Positions 2,667 through 18,877 of a DNA stretch of 64,000 nucleotides are shown piece after piece (positions within the stretch are counted from its first letter, which is position 1; every line of letters begins with the position of its first letter). The notes beneath the pieces are model-generated. The model was not told the origin of the DNA. It worked only from the letters and a program-made list of their open reading frames with translations, and ran no database searches. Source of the stretch: Escherichia phage phi92; the sequence record NC_023693.1; one strand, written 5' to 3'. The position numbers and the translations under genes were made by a program.

Positions 2667-3257
2667 TTAAGGTAGTAAAATACTTTCAATTTCTTCCCAC
2701 TGATTATCTAAACCAGTGATAATTACATTAGGAAGTTTCTTTAACTCTTCCAAGTATGGATCTTCGTAAATAGTGTTGAAATATATTTTCAACGTTTCAT
2801 CTGGAAATAGGACAAGATTTTCAGCCCTATCGTCAATAGTTACGTCGCAAGGTAATAAGTATTTTTCTTTTGTTGCGAAAAAGCCATTACCAGATGTTCT
2901 ACTAAAGTCCACTTTATCTAAAGATCGTGTTACGTGTCTATATTTAGAACTAAGGTGTCCACCCTTAGTGTGGCTTGCTATAGATATATTAGCGCCATTT
3001 GCAATTATACGATGAACAACATCTGTACTATTAGGTACTACTCCCATAGTATCATATAGATGTTGGTTATCCCAAAAAGAGTAAGGATCTACACCAAATT
3101 GCTTTTTAAAATCAGGAAAATATTTCGTAATATCATAATGCACAGTCTTTTGTGTCTTATCAAACTTGATATTAGATCTACTTACCGCATTTAACCAACT
3201 CAACCATTCTATATCGGCAGGAGCTATTACTAAATCCCAATCACATACTAGACGCAT
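2667..3257 (-). CDS. hypothetical protein, possibly HAD-like nucleotidase
   Basis: Start reassigned to internal ATG (MRLVCDWDLV) preceded by AGGAG and overlapping tk stop; hydrophobic-DxD-like N-terminal motif is weak evidence only. Confidence 0.4.
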   Translation of the reverse strand: MRLVCDWDLVIAPADIEWLSWLNAVSRSNIKFDKTQKTVHYDITKYFPDFKKQFGVDPYSFWDNQHLYDTMGVVPNSTDVVHRIIANGANISIASHTKGGHLSSKYRHVTRSLDKVDFSRTSGNGFFATKEKYLLPCDVTIDDRAENLVLFPDETLKIYFNTIYEDPYLEELKKLPNVIITGLDNQWEEIESILLP

Positions 3258-3804
3258 TATTTCTCCTGTTATAACATTTTCTACACATTGTTTCGTAAAT
3301 GTCTTCTCCTCCAATAACAATCTGTTCTTTAGAGTCGATAAGTCTAGCATTGAAAATAGCTTTTCTTCCACATTTACAAATGCTTTTCAATTCTGTAATT
3401 GAATCTGCTATGGCTAATAACCGTTCAGAACCTTCAAACAATTCTGTAGCAAAATCTGTTTTAAGCCCATAACAGAATACAGGAATATCGTAATTATCTA
3501 CCACATCTCCAAGAATGTCAACCATATCTTTAGTTAGGAATTGTGATTCGTCAACAAATACTGCATCTACTGGATTTTCTTTAAGCTGTGTATAAATTTC
3601 CAGCATATCTTCTTTTGTTTTAACTGGTTTTGCTTCCTCTTTAATACCTATCCTAGAAGCAATAGCACAACCAGATCTGGTATCTAAAGCTGAAGTTAAA
3701 AGAAGAACTTTCATATTTCTTTCTTTATAGTTCCAAGCTGTTTGTAGCAGGTGTGTGCTTTTACCACTGTTCATCGGACTGTATCGGAAATAAAGTTTAG
3801 CCAT
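3241..3804 (-). CDS. tk: thymidine kinase
   Basis: P-loop SPMNSGKSTHLLQ, VDESQF, C-terminal CxxC...CxxC zinc ribbon typical of Tdk; RBS present. Confidence 0.9.
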   Translation of the reverse strand: MAKLYFRYSPMNSGKSTHLLQTAWNYKERNMKVLLLTSALDTRSGCAIASRIGIKEEAKPVKTKEDMLEIYTQLKENPVDAVFVDESQFLTKDMVDILGDVVDNYDIPVFCYGLKTDFATELFEGSERLLAIADSITELKSICKCGRKAIFNARLIDSKEQIVIGGEDIYETMCRKCYNRRNNASSM

Positions 3805-11798: not shown

Positions 11799-12731
11799 TT
11801 AGCCTCCAAAGAAGTTTTCTATTTCTTTACGTCGCTCTTGTGGATCTAAAGCAGCCCATTGAGTCTTAGTAAAGTTGTTTCGAAGCCATTCTAGCAAAGT
11901 ATAATATTCTTCGTCAACAATTTGTTTAGCATTGTTTGGGTTGTCCCAAATCATATCCCACTTCTTATTGCCACCACGCATAAGGAATTTTTTAGCAAGA
12001 TAGTATGGTGACTTAATCTTTAACAGTAAGTTAAACGGGTAGTTTGTTTCACGAACAACAAACCCTTCGTGTTTACAATGTTTAGACATTTCAACAACAT
12101 CTGAAAATTTAATCATCGGATAAACTTCAGGACGTTTAAATTTTGTAACAGATGCAATCCCATCAAGAACACCTTCAGGTAACATGAAACTTGTCCCATC
12201 AAGATTTTGAATTCTTGCTCCAATTAAGTATGCGCCTGGTTCTTCTTCGACAATATGTGGGTCAGAAGGATCACAGATTTCAAAAAGAAAAGTTGCTTTT
12301 GCACTTTCTGTCCACTTAATGAAATACTCTATGTCGTCACACTCGGAAACAATACGGTTCTTTGCCATAATTGCGAAATCTGATTCTAGGCTCCCTGTTG
12401 TTGATACAACAAGTTTCCCTTTGTACACACCTACAGATGCCACAAAACCGTTTACTTTACGGACAGCATCTACAATTTCGTCTGCTGGAAGATCTGTACC
12501 ATTTTCAAAACGATTAAAGATTTTAGTAAAAGGCCAAATAACAACATTGTCTTCTGAGTCAACAACCAACCCACGACAATCTAAAAGTCGTTTGTCAACG
12601 TTCCACAAGTTATCCCAGAATACATTGTTTTTGTATTTAAGTACAGCAAGACCAGCATACTCTCCAGATTTAACTTCTTTTTTATGCACTAAACCTTTTG
12701 CAATCAGGTCATCACAATTGAACTTAGCCAC
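11799..12731 (-). CDS. RNA ligase (Rnl-type nucleotidyltransferase)
   Basis: motif I KVNGF, motif IV EGFVVRE, motif V LLKIKSPYY; adjacent to kinase and phosphoesterase. Confidence 0.7.
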   Translation of the reverse strand: MAKFNCDDLIAKGLVHKKEVKSGEYAGLAVLKYKNNVFWDNLWNVDKRLLDCRGLVVDSEDNVVIWPFTKIFNRFENGTDLPADEIVDAVRKVNGFVASVGVYKGKLVVSTTGSLESDFAIMAKNRIVSECDDIEYFIKWTESAKATFLFEICDPSDPHIVEEEPGAYLIGARIQNLDGTSFMLPEGVLDGIASVTKFKRPEVYPMIKFSDVVEMSKHCKHEGFVVRETNYPFNLLLKIKSPYYLAKKFLMRGGNKKWDMIWDNPNNAKQIVDEEYYTLLEWLRNNFTKTQWAALDPQERRKEIENFFGG

Positions 12732-12732
12732 C

Positions 12733-13284
12733 TTAATCTCCTTTGATTATCTTATGATGATCTACAACAATAATATCACGCTTATCCATAATAGAGATGA
12801 TTTCGTCAAAATGCAAGATTTTCCCGTGTGCATCCCAACCAACATCCAACATTTTCCCATACAAATGATCAGGGAATGATCCGTGAGAGTGTCCGTGTAG
12901 CATGATTGATCCATGCCCTTGTTTATTCCAGGCAGCCATAGGGTAATGACTTAAGACGAAGAACAGCTTCTGATATTTCACTTCGTCATAATACAAAACT
13001 TCTCCATACTCTGCAAGCACTTTTCTGTGTTTGCTGTAATCATGGTTCCCAACACAGTAAGTAATATCCCCTTGGAGACGGGAAGCAATCTTACGGGTAT
13101 CTTCTTCAGTCCCGAAACAGAAGTCCCCAAGATGGTACATCTTTACTCCTGGTGTTGTGGCACATTTATTCCATGCTTCGATCAGTGCTTCTGTCATATG
13201 CTCCATATCTTCCCACGGACGATATTCAGGAGCAAACTCTCGGATACGTTTGTGCATAAAATGCAAATCACTTGTAATAAACAT
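12733..13284 (-). CDS. calcineurin-like metallophosphoesterase
   Basis: SDLHFMH, GDFCFG, GNHD, HGHSHG metal-binding motifs. Confidence 0.75.
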   Translation of the reverse strand: MFITSDLHFMHKRIREFAPEYRPWEDMEHMTEALIEAWNKCATTPGVKMYHLGDFCFGTEEDTRKIASRLQGDITYCVGNHDYSKHRKVLAEYGEVLYYDEVKYQKLFFVLSHYPMAAWNKQGHGSIMLHGHSHGSFPDHLYGKMLDVGWDAHGKILHFDEIISIMDKRDIIVVDHHKIIKGD

Positions 13285-13646
13285 TAGTATAATCCCTCGC
13301 TGAATAGTTCACTGTTGTGACCATTTCTTTCGTAGTTAATTTGTTTGGCGTTATCTGCAATGATATAAGCATCTTTGCGACTCCACCAGTTATAATACTG
13401 ATCAATAAACCCTTGATTATCAGGTAAGCAAAACAGTTTATCGATCAATCCTGCATCTTTTAAAACATTAAGTTGTGCAGATAGTACAGGATTTGCATGC
13501 CTAACACAAGGAATAATTAACTCTTCGCCATTGTTAAGAATATACTTATTCGCAGCGCATACTATAACACGTTGAGCATAGTGATCCTCACCAATCCAAG
13601 TAAGAGGTTGGTAACAAATATCATGTTGATTAGTAGCGCACATCAA
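13284..13646 (-). CDS. hypothetical protein (120 aa)
   Basis: ORF only. Confidence 0.4.
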   Translation of the reverse strand: MMCATNQHDICYQPLTWIGEDHYAQRVIVCAANKYILNNGEELIIPCVRHANPVLSAQLNVLKDAGLIDKLFCLPDNQGFIDQYYNWWSRKDAYIIADNAKQINYERNGHNSELFSEGLY

Positions 13647-13801
13647 TTTTCTCCGTACTCTTTTAATCTATCAGCGAAAAAACTGTAATCAGGAAGTAAA
13701 AGATCATTACTCATATCGTTACAGTTTTCTTCCTCTTTATAGATAAAACGCCCTTCATCCTCTTCTTGCTCTGACCAAACTGAGTAATGCATAATACCTA
13801 C

Positions 13802-14143
13802 TTAATAATTAACACGTTTAATTTCAACACCATAGGATGAAATAAAATTTTCCTTAGCTAACATATATTTACCAGCAGCAGAAGGATTTGATGTATGAAC
13901 ATAGATAGTTTTAAGAGCATCCCATTCACCCGCGTACAACATACATTCTACGTCTAAGAACGCATGATATCCTTCTTGATCTTCTCCAAGATCATTATCG
14001 AAGTGTATCTCTGAGATATTATTGAAATTATCTTCATCTGAAACAAAAGATAACCAATCCTCAAAAGATTTTAACCAAATGGCATCCTCATAACCATAAT
14101 CTTTAGGATCTCTTAAATCGTCTAACCAAAGAATTTTAGCCAC
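13802..14143 (-). CDS. hypothetical protein (113 aa)
   Basis: ORF only. Confidence 0.35.
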   Translation of the reverse strand: MAKILWLDDLRDPKDYGYEDAIWLKSFEDWLSFVSDEDNFNNISEIHFDNDLGEDQEGYHAFLDVECMLYAGEWDALKTIYVHTSNPSAAGKYMLAKENFISSYGVEIKRVNY

Positions 14144-14337
14144 TATCTACCCCCTTCCTGTTTCTCTTCTTTCCAAGTTTTACCATTATCTACCAACTTC
14201 TTAGAAACAGCAAATCTTTCTCCATTGATATAAAACAAATAAAGAATAAAGGATTTTCCTATAGTTACAGTATCTGCTACTTCTACACGCTTTACACCTT
14301 GCATGTATTTGGCTTTACCTGAATAAATAAGAAACAT
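14143..14337 (-). CDS. hypothetical protein (64 aa)
   Basis: ORF only. Confidence 0.3.
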   Translation of the reverse strand: MFLIYSGKAKYMQGVKRVEVADTVTIGKSFILYLFYINGERFAVSKKLVDNGKTWKEEKQEGGR

Positions 14338-14615
14338 TACTTATTCCTTTTGTTGTTGATCACATCTAAAGCTGTGTAAGGTTTGTTTGTACCGCTGTAT
14401 TCAAGAATAATTGGTACATATTCATAGACCAACTCAAAAGTACCATACACAGAATCTGCAACTGAAATAAGCATTTCAGTGCCTTCGTCGTTCTTAATTA
14501 ATGAAAATCTTGCCCCTGGTTTATTGAGCACTTCATATTTCTTACCTGCTGTCAGCAAACCTGAATACCATTCATTTTGCACAACAGACAAACACTTCAG
14601 ATAAGTTTTTCTCAT
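14337..14615 (-). CDS. hypothetical protein (92 aa)
   Basis: ORF only. Confidence 0.35.
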   Translation of the reverse strand: MRKTYLKCLSVVQNEWYSGLLTAGKKYEVLNKPGARFSLIKNDEGTEMLISVADSVYGTFELVYEYVPIILEYSGTNKPYTALDVINNKRNK

Positions 14616-14953
14616 TTCTTTTTGCTCCTTCTTTTAGGCTTCTCGTATAAACCTAACACAGCCGATTCTTTTGCACAAATAGGAACTGACTTCATTCCTC
14701 GTTTTTTAGCTTCTGGTAGATTCAAAACCCACCAGCCAAACCAGTACAATTCATCTTCTGTGAAAGGATCTGCCATAGGATCTGCATCACGTGCTTCAAA
14801 TTTAGCAAGAGCTTCTTCTATCTTTTCTATTGGAGTATCAAAGACAAAAGCCTCTGTGTCAAATTTTTGTTTCTTAGGAGCGGCTTTTGCCGCCCCATCT
14901 TTAGATGCGCGCTTTGTTACGGATCGCTTCTTCGGTGTTTTCGCCATCAACAA
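14612..14953 (-). CDS. hypothetical protein with lysine-rich basic termini (113 aa)
   Basis: N-terminus TPKKRSVTKRASK and C-terminus KPKRRSKKK. Confidence 0.35.
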   Translation of the reverse strand: MLMAKTPKKRSVTKRASKDGAAKAAPKKQKFDTEAFVFDTPIEKIEEALAKFEARDADPMADPFTEDELYWFGWWVLNLPEAKKRGMKSVPICAKESAVLGLYEKPKRRSKKK

Positions 14954-15140
14954 CCTCCATGCGGTGTAAGAAATCTTGCTGGAATCGCCAATACTGTTGA
15001 CCAGTCCTTACATCTTCGTAGATCACAACAGGATCAAATACTTTAGATACACCCGCTGGTTTAGGAAAGCCAACTACACGATATAAACCGCCTTTGCTAA
15101 TACAAGAATATGTTACATCAGTTAAAATTTCTTTTTTCAT
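14901..15140 (-). CDS. hypothetical protein (79 aa)
   Basis: ORF only; overlaps upstream ORF. Confidence 0.3.
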   Translation of the reverse strand: MKKEILTDVTYSCISKGGLYRVVGFPKPAGVSKVFDPVVIYEDVRTGQQYWRFQQDFLHRMEVVDGENTEEAIRNKARI

Positions 15141-15334
15141 TTCTTAATAAACTCCAATACAGGTACGTGATCAGCAGTTAAAGTTACACAATTGTAACTT
15201 ACCTTTTCAACTTCAGAGAATGCTTCAACCCAAAGCAAGAAATTCTCTTTAGCTTCTTCATAATTCAATGTTGACTTAACAACATGGAACTCACCAAGAA
15301 TTACTCTATAGATTGTTTGCATAGTTTGATTCAT
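15137..15334 (-). CDS. hypothetical protein (65 aa)
   Basis: ORF only. Confidence 0.3.
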   Translation of the reverse strand: MNQTMQTIYRVILGEFHVVKSTLNYEEAKENFLLWVEAFSEVEKVSYNCVTLTADHVPVLEFIKK

Positions 15335-15400
15335 TTATTTTTCCTTTGTTTAAAATGTGTTAAACAATCGCAAATGCTTGTGACGCACTTTGTGATTCCA

Positions 15401-15769
15401 CTAATTAATGTCAGCACTATGATTGTTGAAAGTATAGGATACTCCATCGCCCAAGTCAACATGAATCTCAACTCCTAACTGTCTTTCTAATGGTAAACGT
15501 TTTGAGAATTGATAATTACAAAGTTTACAGTCTAAGTCAAGCAATTCATGTTTGCTTAAACCTGCAACGATAACTTTGCTTCCCGCTGTCCACTCAATAC
15601 CTTCAAAGTTATCTCTTCTTTTCAAAATGTCAAGTAAGAAGATGATTTGTTGCCATTCCGTAGACAAGTCTTCTTCATAGAACGCAGAACAAAAAGTTTT
15701 ATCATCGTAGAAAGCATACATTATGCCTCCATCTATTGTTTCACTTCTAACGTAACGTGTGACCCTCAT
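15401..15769 (-). CDS. hypothetical protein (122 aa); first gene of the leftward block
   Basis: ORF adjacent to divergent regulatory region. Confidence 0.4.
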   Translation of the reverse strand: MRVTRYVRSETIDGGIMYAFYDDKTFCSAFYEEDLSTEWQQIIFLLDILKRRDNFEGIEWTAGSKVIVAGLSKHELLDLDCKLCNYQFSKRLPLERQLGVEIHVDLGDGVSYTFNNHSADIN

Positions 15770-16110
15770 TATTTCCTCCTGTACGGCTCTGTAACGAGCT
15801 AATAGCCTCTAAGATATGCAATCACCTTACCTCACAGTAAAACTCGTTACAATCGTTTTTAGGAGGTTTAGGTTGTACTTAAAAATAATCTAAAAAGGTG
15901 TTGACAAACGCAAAAAAGTATGCTACCCTAACCCCCGAAAAACGCCGAGCGCAGCGAGGGGGTGTTATCTAATCTTGTGATACATGATCTAACAGACAAC
16001 TGAGTAGTCTACATATAGCACTATGTTATGTCTATAATACTAACATACATACTCTATACTAACAATAGATTCTTTATTAATTTTATTATTAATTAAATAA
16101 TAAATATCTA

Positions 16111-16139
16111 TTGACTTTAGATCTATCTGTATGTAGAGT
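16111..16139 (+). promoter_or_regulatory. sigma70-like promoter upstream of prs-like gene
   Basis: TTGACT - 17 nt - TAGAGT. Confidence 0.5.
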
Positions 16140-16178
16140 AGAGAACATAAAGTCCTAACTCAACTAAGGAGATAAACA

Positions 16179-17072
16179 ATGAAAGTTAGTATTCTACATG
16201 GTGTTGGCTGTTATGTTACTGATGTAGACGTTAAAGTCTTTACATTCTCTGGTGGAGAACAACATGTTCAACTAGACACGAATCTATCAGGTTTCAATCA
16301 TGCTACAGACAGAATCTTACTCTCTTTAGAAGTAAGATCTGCTAAAGACTTGATGACTTTGGTTATGACTAAGAATGCATTGGACAATATGCTATATCAT
16401 AAACCATATTGTGTTGATTTGCTCATGTTGTATGTGCCATATGCACGACAAGACAGAGTGTGTGAACCTGGGGAAGCATTCGGAGTTAAAGCATTTGCTT
16501 CTATAATTAATTCATTAAATTTCTCACGTGTTATCGTTGCTGATCCACATAGTGATGTTACTCCAGCGGTGTTTGACAGACTCTGTGTAATACCTCAAGA
16601 AGAAATTGCTTACGAAACTTTAAAGTGGAAGTTACGTATGGAGAATTTTGCTCTTGTTAGTCCTGATGGTGGTGCTCTTAAGAAAATATTTAAATTATCT
16701 AAGAAAATGTCTTTAGATGTGTTCTGTGCAGAGAAGGTTAGAGATACTGCAACAGGTGCTATTGTTCGTACAGACATTTCTGTACAGGATTTCAATAAGC
16801 GTAACCTGATGATCGTAGATGATATCTGTGACGGCGGTAGAACTTTTATTGAATTGGCTAAAGTGCTACGTGCTCGTAACGCAGGTAAGATTGAGTTATA
16901 TGTTACACACGGTATCTTTTCTAAAGGTCTTAAAGAGTTAAGTGAGCACTTTGACTGCATTCATTCTCTTAATGTGTGGGAAGATAACATCCAAGAAGAT
17001 TCCGGTGTTCTTGTTAAGAATCAGTCAGATTTGCAACAACAAATTGTATCTCCATACGTGTGGAATTTTTAA
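16179..17072 (+). CDS. prs: ribose-phosphate pyrophosphokinase family protein (PRPP synthetase-like; possible ADP-ribose pyrophosphokinase)
   Basis: PRPP-binding loop MIVDDICDGGRT, VSPDGGALKK, VIVADPHS; strong RBS AAGGAG. Confidence 0.85.
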   Translation: MKVSILHGVGCYVTDVDVKVFTFSGGEQHVQLDTNLSGFNHATDRILLSLEVRSAKDLMTLVMTKNALDNMLYHKPYCVDLLMLYVPYARQDRVCEPGEAFGVKAFASIINSLNFSRVIVADPHSDVTPAVFDRLCVIPQEEIAYETLKWKLRMENFALVSPDGGALKKIFKLSKKMSLDVFCAEKVRDTATGAIVRTDISVQDFNKRNLMIVDDICDGGRTFIELAKVLRARNAGKIELYVTHGIFSKGLKELSEHFDCIHSLNVWEDNIQEDSGVLVKNQSDLQQQIVSPYVWNF

Positions 17073-17082
17073 ATAATAAGTG

Positions 17083-17111
17083 TTGACAATAGGGAGTATG
17101 CTTAGTAAGAT
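17083..17111 (+). promoter_or_regulatory. sigma70-like promoter overlapping an 8-bp-arm palindrome, upstream of NAMPT-like gene
   Basis: TTGACA - 17 nt - TAAGAT; palindrome GGGAGTAT ... ATACTCCC spans about 17091-17116. Confidence 0.5.
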
Positions 17112-17143
17112 ACTCCCACACTAACAAACAAGGAGACATAACT

Positions 17144-18877
17144 ATGAATATTTTTGCACCTTTTGCTACTGATTGGTATAAACCTGGTCACAAGCAGATG
17201 TACAACCAAAATACAAAACTCATTTTCTCTAATTTAACTCCTCGTAATGATAAAAACTTTGCACACTATGCAGATCGTGAAGCACGTGGTGTGATTGTTT
17301 TAGGTATTCGTCGAGCAGTCACTGATGCTCTTGTAACTATGTGGGATAGCTTCTTTAAAATGTCTCGTAGTGCAGCAGTAAATAAATTTTATCGTATGTC
17401 TAAAAATGCATTAGGTGCTTCTGCTCCTTCTGCTGAATGTTGGGAAGAATTGCACGATTTAGGTTATCTTCCGCTAGAAGTTCGATCTCTGCCAGAAGGT
17501 GTTTTGTGTCCTATTGGTGTTCCTGTGTTTACTGTGCATAATACTTTAGAAAAATTCTTTTGGTTAACTAACTATGTGGAAACACTATTGTCAGATGAAA
17601 CTTGGAAGACAATGACTAATGCCACAGCAGCTTTTCAGTATAAGCGTATCGCTATGGCGTATGCGATGGCAACGTGTGATAACATTGATCACGTTAATTT
17701 CCAGTGTCATGACTTTAGCCTACGTGGTTTAAGCAATATCGAAGATGGTTATAAGAGTGGTATCGCTCATTTGGCATCTTTCACAGGAACAGATAACATT
17801 CTGGCTATTGAGACTGTGCATGATTATTATGGTATTGATTATGATCAGTTTGTTGCAGGTTCTATTCCGGCAACAGAACATTCAGTAGCAACGACTAACA
17901 TTGGAGCTATTGTTGAAGATCTGAAGAAACATTTCCCACATCTTAAAGATGATGTTGATGGGCTTCGTTATGTAGCAGAGAAAGAGTTTCTTCGCCGCTA
18001 TATTGAAGAAATTGTTCCAGAAGGTTTTTGTTCATATGTAGCAGATTCTTATGATTACTGGGCTGTCTTGACTCGCATTCTGGTAGAATTGAAAGAGTCC
18101 ATTATGTCACGAAATGGTCGTCTTGTTATTCGTCCAGATTCAGGAGATCCGGTTAAAGTTGTTGCAGGATACAATGTTGAATCTTTTGCTAACTATGAAG
18201 ACCTTTTAAATAATGGTATTGCTACAGCCACTGAAGTAGTTCATTTGGCTGATGTTAATAAGTATTACAATGTTCTTCAGGATTGCAGTGTTGCTGATTG
18301 TATTGATGAAACTTATGAGATTCCTTATTGTGAAGCAGTAGGTTCTATTCAAATCCTTTGGGAAGTGTTTGGTGGTACTATCAACCGAAAAGGCTACAAG
18401 GTTCTTGATCAGCACATCGGTATGATTTATGGTGATTCTATTACTGTTGAACGAGAATACGAGATCTTACGCCGACTGAAGAAGAAAGGTTTTGCAGCTT
18501 CCAATATTGTATTTGGTGTTGGTAGTTATACTTATCAGTTCAATACACGAGATACTTTTGGTTTTGCTGTTAAAGCAACAGGTAGTATCATCGGTGAACA
18601 CGAAATTTTGGTAAGTAAGGAGCCTAAAACTGATCCTGGTAAACGCTCTGCAAAAGGTTTTATTAAGGTTGTTAAGGATACAAATGGTAAACTTTCTCTT
18701 GTGGATAATCTTTCTTTTAAAGATATCCAAGATGAAGACAATGAGTTAAAAGTTATCTTCAGGGATGGTACGGTTATTACACCACAAGTAGAAGGACGTG
18801 ATGAAACATTTACTGATATCCGCAACCGTGTTGATGTAGAGGTTCTTCGTACTATGGGAACCATCCAGGTTGACTAA
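17144..18877 (+). CDS. nadV: nicotinamide phosphoribosyltransferase family protein (NAMPT/NadV-like)
   Basis: N-terminal FATDWYKPGHKQMY matches the NAMPT TDSYK region; 577 aa with C-terminal extension. Confidence 0.85.
   Translation: MNIFAPFATDWYKPGHKQMYNQNTKLIFSNLTPRNDKNFAHYADREARGVIVLGIRRAVTDALVTMWDSFFKMSRSAAVNKFYRMSKNALGASAPSAECWEELHDLGYLPLEVRSLPEGVLCPIGVPVFTVHNTLEKFFWLTNYVETLLSDETWKTMTNATAAFQYKRIAMAYAMATCDNIDHVNFQCHDFSLRGLSNIEDGYKSGIAHLASFTGTDNILAIETVHDYYGIDYDQFVAGSIPATEHSVATTNIGAIVEDLKKHFPHLKDDVDGLRYVAEKEFLRRYIEEIVPEGFCSYVADSYDYWAVLTRILVELKESIMSRNGRLVIRPDSGDPVKVVAGYNVESFANYEDLLNNGIATATEVVHLADVNKYYNVLQDCSVADCIDETYEIPYCEAVGSIQILWEVFGGTINRKGYKVLDQHIGMIYGDSITVEREYEILRRLKKKGFAASNIVFGVGSYTYQFNTRDTFGFAVKATGSIIGEHEILVSKEPKTDPGKRSAKGFIKVVKDTNGKLSLVDNLSFKDIQDEDNELKVIFRDGTVITPQVEGRDETFTDIRNRVDVEVLRTMGTIQVD

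What the first reader, a model, noticed from the sequence alone, without database searches (positions are those of the whole stretch)
13284..15769. Run of eight small leftward ORFs of unknown function next to the divergent control region
Eight small ORFs (64-122 aa) are packed with overlapping stops and starts and show no recognisable domains. One is strongly basic at both ends. The position, first transcribed leftward from the regulatory region, is typical of early host-takeover or anti-defence genes.
Basis: inference. Interest (0 to 1): 0.45.

Follow-up and report, generated by a model that had tools for sequence, protein, structure and literature searches.

The report
Small phi92 genes beside RNA-repair cassette
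The run of small leftward ORFs is real and conserved, and consists of the already catalogued genes gp098 to gp106A of coliphage phi92 and its relatives. Most have no known function, one is a predicted cyclic-phosphate-processing (cRec) enzyme tied to the RNA-repair genes just downstream, and the finding is largely ordinary.

Summary
The window is phage phi92 or a near-identical Justusliebigvirus. The stretch 13284-15769 holds ten tightly packed minus-strand genes, not eight.

The genes cover 99.6% of the stretch, against 25 ± 10% in shuffles. They are under purifying selection (dN/dS about 0.07-0.19 against Phapecoctavirus).

"No recognisable domains" is wrong in two cases:
- gp100 is a cRec domain protein (PF20274, 54 bits), a predicted but untested cyclic-phosphate phosphoesterase.
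- gp098 is a homologue of the T4 Arn.3 domain, whose function is unknown.

Two database labels are unsupported: "anti-restriction nuclease" for gp098 and "transposase-like" for gp103.

The run leads directly into a metallophosphoesterase, an Rnl1-type RNA ligase and a P-loop kinase. It faces a Prs-like/Nampt-like gene pair with the architecture of the NAD-reconstitution pathway NARP1.

An anti-defence neighbourhood is therefore plausible, and concrete only for gp100. No expression-timing data exist.

Novelty: already known. Interest: low.

The parts
15401..15769 (-). gA, 122 aa, acidic (pI 4.8). First gene of the leftward operon; exact match to Phi92_gp106A. Function unknown.
   Evidence: Strong Shine-Dalgarno site (AGGAGG, 6 nt before ATG). 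phrog_14390, E=3e-73. Found in 131 phage records, all Stephanstirmvirinae-like. 42-44% identical in Phapecoctavirus, dN/dS 0.17. Exact match. No Pfam, NCBIfam, PADLOC or PDB hit.
15331..15447 (-). gTM, 38 aa: one hydrophobic helix and a basic C-terminus. Not annotated in this genus. Overlaps the gA 3' end by 47 nt and the gB start by ATGA.
   Evidence: Intact at 95-100% identity in all 54 Justusliebigvirus records. This exact sequence is not called anywhere in the 15-billion-protein collection. Phapecoctavirus has an annotated ORF of the same length, position and architecture (L003 7381-7497).
15137..15334 (-). gB, 65 aa; exact match to Phi92_gp105. Function unknown.
   Evidence: phrog_15683. 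49-62% identical in Phapecoctavirus and KP2025. 0 non-synonymous against 2-4 synonymous changes within the genus. Exact match.
14901..15140 (-). gC, 79 aa; exact match to Phi92_gp104. Possible DUF1653-like small beta-rich domain, below threshold.
   Evidence: Pfam DUF1653, 13.8 bits against a cut-off of 23.5. One relative is annotated as 'DUF1653 domain-containing protein'. 73-76% identical in Phapecoctavirus, dN/dS 0.13.
14612..14947 (-). gD, 111 aa; close to Phi92_gp103 (same 90% cluster). A small folded core between a lysine-rich disordered N-tail and a basic C-tail; probably binds nucleic acid. The database label 'transposase-like' is unsupported.
14337..14615 (-). gE, 92 aa; exact match to Phi92_gp102. 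Function unknown. Present in some Phapecoctavirus only.
   Evidence: phrog_10169. 64% identical in ESCO25; absent from KP2025 and tuntematon. No PDB hit.
14143..14337 (-). gF, 64 aa, basic; exact match to Phi92_gp101. Function unknown. Same patchy distribution as gE.
   Evidence: phrog_15376. 76% identical in ESCO25 only, dN/dS 0.07.
13802..14143 (-). gG, 113 aa, GTG start, acidic; exact match to Phi92_gp100. A standalone cRec (cyclic-phosphate-processing receiver) domain, predicted to be a phosphoesterase.
   Evidence: PF20274, E=2.3e-14, 54.3 bits against a cut-off of 27. D8, D9, D49 and H83 are invariant across eight homologues down to 31% identity. 617 homologue clusters found, and the 120 listed all carry PF20274. 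Overlaps or abuts the RNA ligase gene in rV5 and Salmonella phage 6S. UniRef already uses the cRec name for this genus.
13643..13792 (-). gH, 49 aa, very acidic (pI 4.1); exact match to Phi92_gp099. Fast-evolving and dispensable.
   Evidence: In-frame stop in phage ESCO8. A 48-aa allele only about 32% identical occupies the same slot in PaulScherrer, KKE7M and tuntematon. Exact match.
13284..13643 (-). gI, 119 aa; close to Phi92_gp098 (same 90% cluster). Homologue of the C-terminal domain of T4 Arn.3. Function unknown. The label 'anti-restriction nuclease' is a name-proximity error.
12733..13284 (-). Calcineurin-type metallophosphoesterase, 183 aa. Outside the finding; next gene in the same operon.
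   Evidence: Pfam Metallophos_2, E=3.8e-4, 20.9 bits against a cut-off of 27, so below threshold. Annotated as a phosphoesterase in relatives.
11799..12731 (-). T4 Rnl1-type RNA ligase, 310 aa.
   Evidence: PF09511, E=3.8e-14. 78% identical to the ligase next to cRec in Salmonella phage 6S.
11394..11798 (-). P-loop kinase, 134 aa (AAA_33); candidate polynucleotide 5'-kinase.
   Evidence: PF13671, E=1.8e-10.
15770..16178 (.). Divergent intergenic region. Contains a block of about 60 nt (about 15899-15960) conserved across genera. On the plus strand it reads TTGACA, 17 nt, TACCCT.
   Evidence: Alignment A4. Unique in the window. Hairpin plus T-run on the minus strand; fold z-score -2.0.
16179..18877 (+). 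Facing operon: a Prs-family gene (16179-17072) and a Nampt-family gene (17144-18877), matching the NARP1 (Adps + Namat) architecture.
   Evidence: PF14572/PF00156 and PF04095. NARP1 definition from bioRxiv 10.1101/2024.02.11.579819. Orthology to Bas63 genes 79-80 was not tested here.

Best explanation
These are ten real, translationally coupled genes (phi92 gp106A to gp098). They form the promoter-proximal part of a long leftward operon in a phi92-type myovirus. They do not form one functional unit.

One gene has a predicted activity. gG/gp100 is a standalone cRec domain, a receiver-fold protein that keeps the acidic pocket used for phosphoryl chemistry.

The most likely role of gG is to open cyclic phosphates. 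Two substrates are plausible:
- the 2',3'-cyclic ends left on tRNAs by host anticodon nucleases;
- ADP-ribose cyclic phosphate.

In the tRNA case it would act with the enzymes encoded just downstream. The metallophosphoesterase removes the phosphate, the P-loop kinase phosphorylates the 5'-OH, and the Rnl1-type ligase seals the break. This is the heal-and-seal logic of T4 PseT/Rnl1.

gI/gp098 is an Arn.3-type domain of unknown function. Its conserved polar residues suggest an enzyme or a ligand binder.

gD/gp103 is a small folded core with basic disordered tails and probably binds nucleic acid.

The other seven (gA, gTM, gB, gC, gE, gF, gH) are lineage-restricted accessory proteins with no assignable activity.

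Shown here: the genes, their overlaps, their conservation, the domain memberships and the gene neighbourhood.
Inferred: every biochemical step and the early timing.
For: Coding reality:
- 99.6% ORF coverage against 25% in shuffles.
- dN/dS 0.07-0.19 against Phapecoctavirus; 39 synonymous against 16 non-synonymous changes within the genus.
- Shine-Dalgarno sites and ATGA/TAATG junctions.
- Exact matches to phi92 proteins.

cRec:
- PF20274 at twice the gathering score.
- D8, D9, D49 and H83 invariant down to 31% identity.
- The 120 listed of 617 homologue clusters all carry PF20274.

Linkage of cRec to RNA repair:
- Same operon as PF09511 RNA ligase, AAA_33 kinase and phosphoesterase.
- The cRec gene overlaps or abuts the RNA ligase gene in rV5 (ORF82/83) and in Salmonella phage 6S.
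- About 2.5 kb from RtcB in Proteus phage P59.
- Near Thg1 and ArfA in marine T4-like contigs.
- The family's describers report the same linkage (PMC7824862).

NAD link:
- The facing gene pair has the NARP1 architecture.
- The NARP1 intermediate ADPR-PP decays to ADPR-cyclic-phosphate.

gI and gD.
Against: - No cRec protein has been characterised biochemically; the activity is a published prediction.
- In phage tuntematon the cRec gene persists although the RNA ligase and kinase genes are absent.
- In phi92-type genomes three genes separate cRec from the ligase.
- From my own knowledge of CthPnkp (not tested here), calcineurin-type healing enzymes already have 2',3'-cyclic phosphodiesterase activity. 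A separate cyclic-phosphate opener might therefore be redundant.
- gI homologues in T4, Vi01 and Henunavirus sit among replication genes, not RNA-repair genes. Its adjacency to the phosphoesterase here is not a conserved association.
- In rV5 the gD homologue is about 5 kb from the ligase.
- There are no transcription or translation data for this phage group.
Confidence: 0.6

Rival explanations
1. One reading: the run is a battery of early host-takeover or anti-defence inhibitors. Each would be a small protein that binds and blocks a host target, made immediately after injection from the divergent promoter region.
For: - Small size and promoter-proximal position.
- Variable gene content at this locus between genera: gE and gF are patchy, and extra ORFs and an HNH insert occur in Phapecoctavirus.
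- gH is hypervariable and can be lost.
- The neighbours are counter-defence-type modules.
- The T4 relative of gI lies in the arn cluster, next to a proven McrBC inhibitor. The authors of a 2026 preprint suggest that whole cluster may serve counter-defence.
Against: - No hit to any characterised anti-defence protein (Pfam, PHROG, NCBIfam; PDB for gA, gC, gD, gE, gG and gI). PADLOC, which holds defence-system models rather than anti-defence models, also gave nothing.
- Six of the ten genes are core genes of the subfamily under strong purifying selection. That profile is less typical of arms-race inhibitors.
- phi92-like BASEL phages are exceptionally sensitive to restriction-modification systems.
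- Bas60 was the infecting phage in a type I CBASS assay and triggered cGAMP production.
- Early timing is unproven.
Confidence: 0.3
2. The conserved members (gA-gD and gI) are housekeeping accessories of phage nucleic-acid metabolism, such as DNA/RNA-binding or nucleotide-processing factors for replication, recombination or transcription. They would have no role in conflict with host immunity.
For: - The operon continues into DNA ligase, a MazG-like pyrophosphohydrolase and RdgC.
- gI homologues sit next to topoisomerase, helicase and primase genes in T4, Vi01 and Henunavirus.
- gD has histone-H1-like basic tails.
- Selection is strongly purifying.
Against: - The weak profile hit of gD to ribosomal protein S6 (E=0.06) disagrees with the predicted secondary structure.
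Confidence: 0.25
3. Some or all of the ORFs are chance open frames or annotation artefacts.
For: - The ORFs are short, as small as 38-65 aa.
- gTM has no clear Shine-Dalgarno site and is never annotated in this genus.
- gH carries a stop codon in one isolate.
Against: - Coverage is far outside the shuffle distribution.
- Protein-level conservation continues where the DNA has diverged to about 75% identity or is no longer alignable.
- dN/dS is far below 1.
- Every ORF except gTM has its own PHROG family.
- gTM is intact in 54 of 54 genomes and has a positional counterpart in the sister genus.
Confidence: 0.03

Closest known systems
cRec (cyclic-phosphate-processing receiver) domain, Pfam PF20274, defined computationally by Iyer, Anantharaman, Krishnan, Burroughs and Aravind 2021 (PMC7824862)
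   Same: gG scores twice the gathering threshold and keeps the receiver-type acidic residues. It is a standalone protein with no histidine-kinase partner. It lies in an operon with an RNA ligase and opposite an NAD-related operon, which is the context used to define the family.
   Different: Nothing that separates it from the family. In phi92-type genomes it lies three genes from the ligase, whereas in rV5 it overlaps the ligase gene. The family's activity has never been tested.
T4 Arn.3 (153-aa ORF between motA and arn; function unknown) and its family, labelled PF26092 in the precomputed tables
   Same: gI aligns to the C-terminal 112 residues at 46% identity. It shares the family-wide motif VCAA...G.RH...QGF.DQ.G..R..A...Q...L.SE.LY.
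   Different: gI lacks the roughly 40-residue N-terminal extension of T4 Arn.3. It sits next to a phosphoesterase and RNA ligase rather than in a motA-arn-asiA cluster. It is not related to Arn itself, the McrBC inhibitor.
T4 PseT (polynucleotide kinase-phosphatase) with Rnl1, and bacterial Pnkp (kinase, calcineurin-type phosphoesterase, ligase): heal-and-seal repair of tRNAs cut by anticodon nucleases. This description rests on my own knowledge of established work.
   Same: The operon encodes the same three activities as separate proteins: AAA_33 kinase, metallophosphoesterase and PF09511 ligase. The small-ORF run is co-oriented and contiguous with them.
   Different: The three enzymes lie outside the flagged coordinates. 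The healing phosphatase is calcineurin-type, as in bacterial Pnkp, not HAD-type as in T4 PseT. A cRec gene is added. No activity was tested here.
T4 arn.4-arn.3-arn.2-arn.1-arn cluster: a run of small genes of mostly unknown function containing one proven anti-restriction protein (bioRxiv 10.64898/2026.06.19.733364)
   Same: Both are runs of small, overlapping, mostly uncharacterised genes. They share one homologous member, Arn.3/gI.
   Different: Only one gene is shared. No Arn homologue is present. T4's cluster is reported as a middle transcript, while timing here is unknown.

Membership tests
cRec / PF20274 (gG) | Match to the family profile above Pfam's gathering score | tested here: met
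   54.3 bits against a cut-off of 27, E=2.3e-14, covering profile positions 2-81 of 88. rV5 ORF83 scores 52.3 bits. The 120 listed of 617 homologue clusters all carry PF20274.
cRec / PF20274 (gG) | Receiver-type catalytic acidic residues are conserved: an Asp pair after strand 1 and an Asp after strand 3 | tested here: met
   D8, D9 (LWLDD) and D49 (FDNDLG) are invariant in eight homologues down to 31% identity. H83 of the H-T/S-S-N motif is also invariant.
cRec / PF20274 (gG) | Not part of a histidine-kinase two-component system; linked instead to RNA ligases or NAD/ADP-ribose-processing genes | tested here: met
   Standalone 113-aa protein. PF09511 ligase lies 1.1 kb downstream in the same operon. 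Overlaps or abuts the ligase gene in rV5 and phage 6S, with Sir2 nearby. RtcB is nearby in P59. The facing operon is Prs-like plus Nampt-like.
cRec / PF20274 (gG) | Receiver (flavodoxin-like, five-stranded alpha/beta) fold | not tested
cRec / PF20274 (gG) | Hydrolysis of cyclic phosphate (2',3'-cyclic RNA ends, cADPR or ADPR-cyclic-P) | not testable with these tools
   The activity is only predicted in PMC7824862. I found no biochemical report.
T4 Arn.3 family / PF26092 (gI) | Significant sequence homology to T4 Arn.3 | tested here: met
   tblastn gives 46% identity over residues 8-119, E=5e-23, to T4_ev151. The hit falls in the 153-aa ORF between motA and arn. The gI-family HMM scores 109 bits on that ORF. 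A 99%-identical relative carries PF26092 in the precomputed tables. That model is not in the local Pfam copy.
Arn, the T4 anti-restriction protein that inhibits McrBC (the database label of gI) | Homology to the 92-aa Arn protein | tested here: not met
   In the T4 locus the gI profile hits only the Arn.3 ORF (2369-2830), not the 92-aa ORF at 2997-3275. No PDB sequence hit of any kind at E<=10 with the profile. gI has pI 5.2, only mildly acidic. phi92-like phages are highly sensitive to restriction-modification systems.
Transposase (the database label of gD) | A recognisable transposase catalytic domain (DDE, HUH, or serine or tyrosine recombinase) | tested here: not met
DUF1653 / PF07866 (gC) | Match to the family profile above the gathering score | tested here: inconclusive
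   13.8 bits for the window protein and 13.5 bits for the ESCO25 orthologue, against a cut-off of 23.5. Two other orthologues gave no hit. One GenBank record uses the DUF1653 name.
Heal-and-seal RNA repair cassette (context, outside the finding) | Ligase, 5'-kinase and 3'-phosphatase/cyclic phosphodiesterase encoded together | tested here: met
   PF09511 at 53.5 bits and AAA_33 at 41.7 bits are both above cut-off. The phosphoesterase scores only 20.9 bits against 27, so its assignment rests partly on annotation in relatives.
NARP1 (Adps + Namat), facing operon (context) | Adjacent Prs-family (PF14572) and Nampt-family (PF04095) genes | tested here: met
   Domain architecture; pathway definition. 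Orthology to Bas63 genes 79-80 and preference for ADPR-PP as substrate were not tested.

The most novel reading that the evidence does not exclude
gI/gp098 may represent a widespread, uncharacterised catalytic or ligand-binding domain.

What the evidence shows:
- It belongs to the Arn.3 family: 1,584 phage genomes and about 1,100 clusters at 50% identity, including T4.
- A set of near-invariant polar residues (R48, H49, Q77, D81, Q82, R89, Q101, S115, E116) suggests an active or binding site.

The reading: in phi92-type phages the gene is translationally coupled to the healing phosphoesterase and sits between cRec and the RNA ligase. It could therefore supply a new RNA-end-processing, nucleotide-processing or immune-signal-sequestering activity in counter-defence.
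Probability: 0.15. Interest if true: 0.6.

Novelty: already known. Interest (0 to 1): 0.22.

Why it matters
The practical value lies mainly in curation.
- Two misleading labels that spread through more than 100 phage genomes ("anti-restriction nuclease", "transposase-like protein") have no support.
- One gene, gp100, deserves the cRec name in all relatives.
- A conserved 38-aa membrane ORF is missing from the annotation of every Justusliebigvirus genome.

Biologically, the locus places a cRec gene, a split heal-and-seal RNA-repair set and a NARP1-type gene pair around one divergent intergenic region. It does so in a genetically tractable coliphage group (BASEL Bas60-62). That makes it a convenient system for the first biochemical test of the cRec prediction. 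It would also allow asking whether Arn.3-type proteins do anything measurable.

None of this would surprise a specialist.

Tried and rejected
Family searches
- NCBIfam and PADLOC scans of all ten ORFs gave nothing meaningful.
- PHROGs gave only 'unknown function' families.

Solved structures, by sequence
- Single-sequence searches for gI, gG, gC, gA and gE gave no significant hit.
- A profile search for gI gave nothing.
- A profile search for gD gave a weak ribosomal protein S6 match (E=0.06). I rejected it because the AF2 model puts helices where S6 has strands.

Fold searches
- Foldseek against viral models returned only uncharacterised relatives of gI. It also gave two weak hits to 'large polyvalent protein associated domain' proteins (E about 0.05), too weak to use.
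- The afdb50 library was unavailable.

Domain fusions of the gI family
- The ten longest homologues had no informative Pfam domain.

Conserved gene neighbours
- gI neighbours in T4, Vi01, Henunavirus and phage A73 show no consistent RNA-repair link.
- The gD-phosphoesterase adjacency seen in Salmonella phage 6S does not hold in rV5.

Other ideas
- Zinc binding by the CxxC of gA: rejected, because the second Cys is not conserved in KP2025.
- Programmed frameshifting across the 47-nt gC/gD overlap: no slippery site is apparent, and gD has its own strong Shine-Dalgarno site.

Promoters and RNA elements
- The promoter scan was not enriched over shuffles.
- Rfam found only tRNAs in the window.

Literature
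- The original phi92 genome paper is not in the library.
- I found no transcriptome for this phage group.

Full report
IDENTITY OF THE WINDOW

The stretch 13000-16200 is 99.3% identical to Escherichia phage Nernie. It is at least 95% identical over its full length to 54 records of the genus Justusliebigvirus, the phi92-like phages of the subfamily Stephanstirmvirinae.

Seven of the small proteins are exact matches to phi92 proteins: gp099, gp100, gp101, gp102, gp104, gp105 and gp106A. Two more fall in the same 90% clusters as gp098 and gp103. The window is therefore phi92 itself or a near-identical isolate.

THE OBSERVATION

All eight ORFs are present on the minus strand at the stated coordinates. 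There are in fact ten.

I label them in transcription order:
- gA, 15769-15401, 122 aa
- gTM, 15447-15331, 38 aa
- gB, 15334-15137, 65 aa
- gC, 15140-14901, 79 aa
- gD, 14947-14612, 111 aa
- gE, 14615-14337, 92 aa
- gF, 14337-14143, 64 aa
- gG, 14143-13802, 113 aa, GTG start
- gH, 13792-13643, 49 aa
- gI, 13643-13284, 119 aa

The junctions are ATGA, TAATG, TAGTG or TGATG overlaps, two 47-nt overlaps and one 9-nt gap. Most starts have a Shine-Dalgarno motif.

The ten ORFs cover 99.6% of the 2,486 nt. In 500 dinucleotide-preserving shuffles, minus-strand ORFs of at least 38 aa cover 25% (sd 9.6, maximum 54%).

The DNA of the sister genus Phapecoctavirus aligns at only about 75% identity, and not at all over gA. 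Its proteins are nevertheless conserved:

| Gene | Identity in Phapecoctavirus and KP2025 |
|---|---|
| gA | 42-44% |
| gB | 49-62% |
| gC | 73-76% |
| gD | 65-71% |
| gE | 64% (ESCO25 only) |
| gF | 76% (ESCO25 only) |
| gG | 50-52% |
| gI | 72-81% |

dN/dS is 0.07-0.19 wherever dS is not saturated. Within the genus, the comparison with PaulScherrer shows 39 synonymous against 16 non-synonymous differences. These are real genes.

The 'strongly basic at both ends' protein is gD. Residues 1-28 have 11 K/R against 1 D/E, and residues 101-111 have 7 against 1.

gH is phi92 gp099, a very acidic protein. It has an in-frame stop in phage ESCO8. In PaulScherrer, KKE7M and tuntematon a 48-aa allele only about 32% identical takes its place. 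It is fast-evolving and dispensable.

gTM fills the only apparent gap, between gA and gB. It consists of one hydrophobic helix and a basic tail.
- It is intact at 95-100% identity in all 54 genus members.
- Its stop overlaps the gB start by ATGA.
- This exact sequence is not called anywhere in the 15-billion-protein collection.
- Phapecoctavirus has an annotated 38-aa ORF with the same position and architecture.

DOMAINS

'No recognisable domains' does not hold.

gG is a cRec domain protein.
- It matches Pfam PF20274 (cREC_REC) at E=2.3e-14, 54.3 bits against a cut-off of 27.
- An alignment with homologues from Phapecoctavirus, KP2025, Salmonella phage 6S, Yersinia phage phiR1-37, Streptomyces phage Coruscant, Klebsiella phage Eowyn and Proteus phage P59 goes down to 31% identity. 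D8, D9, R11, P13, W23, D49 and H83 stay invariant. These include the receiver-type Asp pair and the phospho-acceptor-position Asp.
- A profile search found 617 homologue clusters, and the 120 listed all carry PF20274.
- UniRef already names Justusliebigvirus members 'Cyclic-phosphate processing Receiver domain-containing protein'.

The family was defined computationally by Iyer et al. 2021 (PMC7824862). They noted that it never occurs with histidine kinases. It occurs next to RNA ligases and NAD/ADP-ribose-processing genes. They proposed that it hydrolyses cADPR or 2',3'-cyclic phosphates. I found no biochemical test of that proposal.

gI is a homologue of T4 Arn.3.
- It has homologues in 1,584 phage records.
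- In T4_ev151 the match (46% identity over 112 residues) falls in the 153-aa ORF between motA and arn. From the gene order motA, arn.4, arn.3, arn.2, arn, asiA.1, asiA, t, this is arn.3. The Vi01 record makes the same call.
- Close relatives carry PF26092 in the precomputed tables. That model is absent from the local Pfam copy.
- The label 'anti-restriction nuclease' is therefore a name-proximity error. The gI profile does not hit the 92-aa Arn ORF.
- BASEL phi92-like phages are 'exceptionally susceptible' to restriction-modification systems.

Further findings on the gI family:
- An exhaustive profile search found 1,119 representatives at E<=1e-3. The domain is at the C-terminus in nearly all of the best 150 hits.
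- The family-wide conserved pattern is VCAA...G.RH...QGF.DQ.G..R..A...Q...L.SE.LY. This suggests an active or binding site.
- The ten longest homologues carry no informative fused domain.
- Foldseek against viral models returns only uncharacterised relatives.

gD is not a transposase.
- It has no family hit.
- It occurs in 340 phage records, including rV5 ORF92, where the label originated without any cited homologue.
- A weak profile hit to ribosomal protein S6 (E=0.06) disagrees with the predicted secondary structure.

gC touches DUF1653 only below threshold.

gA, gB, gE and gF have no hits beyond their own PHROGs.

CONTEXT

The run is not a self-contained block. The stop of gI overlaps the start of a calcineurin-type phosphoesterase. 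Downstream of it, in order:
- a T4 Rnl1-type RNA ligase (PF09511);
- an AAA_33 P-loop kinase;
- an ATP-dependent DNA ligase;
- a MazG-like protein;
- RdgC.

Kinase, phosphoesterase and ligase are the three activities of heal-and-seal RNA repair. From my own knowledge of established work, T4 PseT/Rnl1 uses them against PrrC, and bacterial Pnkp combines them in one protein.

The association of cRec with RNA ligases recurs elsewhere:
- In rV5 the cRec gene (ORF83, 52 bits) overlaps the end of the RNA ligase gene (ORF82), which is the first gene after a divergent region.
- In Salmonella phage 6S the order is phosphoesterase, hypothetical gene, HNH, RNA ligase, cRec, ATPase, Sir2, DNA ligase.
- In Proteus phage P59 cRec lies about 2.5 kb from RtcB.
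- In marine T4-like contigs it lies near ArfA and Thg1.

Across the divergent region lie a Prs-family gene and a Nampt-family gene. This is the architecture of NARP1 (Adps + Namat), which rebuilds NAD+ from ADP-ribose. Its intermediate ADPR-PP decays to ADPR-cyclic-phosphate, another conceivable cRec substrate.

Two observations cut against a simple module picture:
- Phage tuntematon keeps cRec, gI and the phosphoesterase but lacks the ligase and kinase.
- gI and gD are not consistently next to RNA-repair genes in other phage groups.

TIMING AND CONTROL

The 409-bp intergenic region marks a strand switch, and the GC skew flips there. The consensus promoter scan is not enriched over shuffles (14 against 12 ± 3.2).

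An alignment with Phapecoctavirus and KP2025 shows one block of about 60 nt conserved amid diverged flanks. On the plus strand it reads TTGACA, 17 nt, TACCCT, followed by CGAGCGCAGCGAG. It is unique in the window. It could be a rightward sigma-70-type promoter with an unusually constrained -10 region. I could not locate a convincing leftward promoter.

No transcriptome exists for this phage group. The rV5 paper predicts transcription units only, and did not find the expected bidirectional promoters at the equivalent position. 'Early' therefore remains an inference.

VERDICT

The neighbourhood is of counter-defence type. One of the ten genes (gG, cRec) has a specific, published and untested prediction that fits it. 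For the others no function can be assigned.

Two experimental observations do not suggest a rich anti-defence arsenal in this genus:
- sensitivity to restriction-modification systems;
- use of Bas60 as the infecting phage in a type I CBASS assay, where it triggered cGAMP production.

Everything here is already catalogued, so I rate novelty as 'already known' and interest as low.

The most novel reading not excluded is that the Arn.3-type domain is a new enzymatic or ligand-binding activity used by many lytic phages.

Noticed in passing
window 15331-15447 (-): A 38-aa single-pass membrane ORF, not annotated in any Justusliebigvirus record and absent from the large protein collection. It is intact in 54 of 54 genomes, overlaps the next gene's start by ATGA, and has an annotated positional counterpart in Phapecoctavirus.
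   Followed up: yes
window about 15899-15960, within the intergenic region 15770-16178: A block of about 60 nt conserved across Justusliebigvirus, Phapecoctavirus and Klebsiella phage KP2025, while the rest of the intergenic region has diverged. On the plus strand it reads TTGACA, 17 nt, TACCCT, then CGAGCGCAGCGAG. It is unique in the window. On the minus strand it forms a small GC hairpin followed by a T-run (fold z-score -2.0). It may be a promoter/operator or a small RNA element.
   Followed up: partly
window 13643-13792 (-); L001 4644-4793; L009 and L010 1144-1290: gH (phi92 gp099) has an in-frame stop in phage ESCO8. In PaulScherrer, KKE7M and tuntematon it is replaced by a 48-aa acidic allele only about 32% identical. 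This is a hypervariable slot inside an otherwise 96-99% identical region.
   Followed up: partly
window 16179-17072 and 17144-18877 (+): A Prs-family and Nampt-family gene pair with the architecture of the NAD+ reconstitution pathway NARP1 (Adps + Namat), facing the small-ORF operon. Orthology to the tested Bas63 genes was not checked.
   Followed up: partly
window 20508-20583 (+): One of the 15 tRNA genes could not be typed by ARAGORN, although Rfam scores it at 63.7 bits. The sequence reads as a tRNA-Lys(UUU)-like molecule with loop CUUUUAA and an imperfect anticodon stem. From my own knowledge, tRNA-Lys is a common target of anticodon nucleases, so a variant copy next to an RNA-repair cassette may be worth a look.
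   Followed up: partly
L005 (phage tuntematon) 3455-6402: This Phapecoctavirus lacks the RNA ligase and P-loop kinase genes but keeps cRec, the Arn.3-like gene and a diverged phosphoesterase. It also carries an HNH-like insert between the gD and cRec homologues.
   Followed up: no
records MG065645, MG065689, MG065639, MG065656: Records named 'Campylobacter phage', with host given as Campylobacter jejuni, are 98.6% identical to this E. coli phage over the query. The host label looks doubtful.
   Followed up: no
L006 (Salmonella phage vB_Sen_SG_WM_SEW_6S): The record is classified under Demerecviridae. Its gene order around the RNA ligase, cRec, Sir2 and DNA ligase genes, and 78% identity of the ligase, resemble rV5-like Vequintavirinae.
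   Followed up: no
L015, L016, L018 (marine metagenome contigs): In marine T4-like contigs, cRec homologues sit within a few kb of ArfA (ribosome rescue) and Thg1 (tRNA 5'-end repair). In L018 an Acb1 gene is also nearby. This context involves RNA damage and immune signalling but includes no RNA ligase.
   Followed up: no
window 14901-14947 and 15401-15447: Both long gene overlaps in the run (gC/gD and gA/gTM) are exactly 47 nt. This is probably coincidence; no slippery sequence was seen.
   Followed up: no
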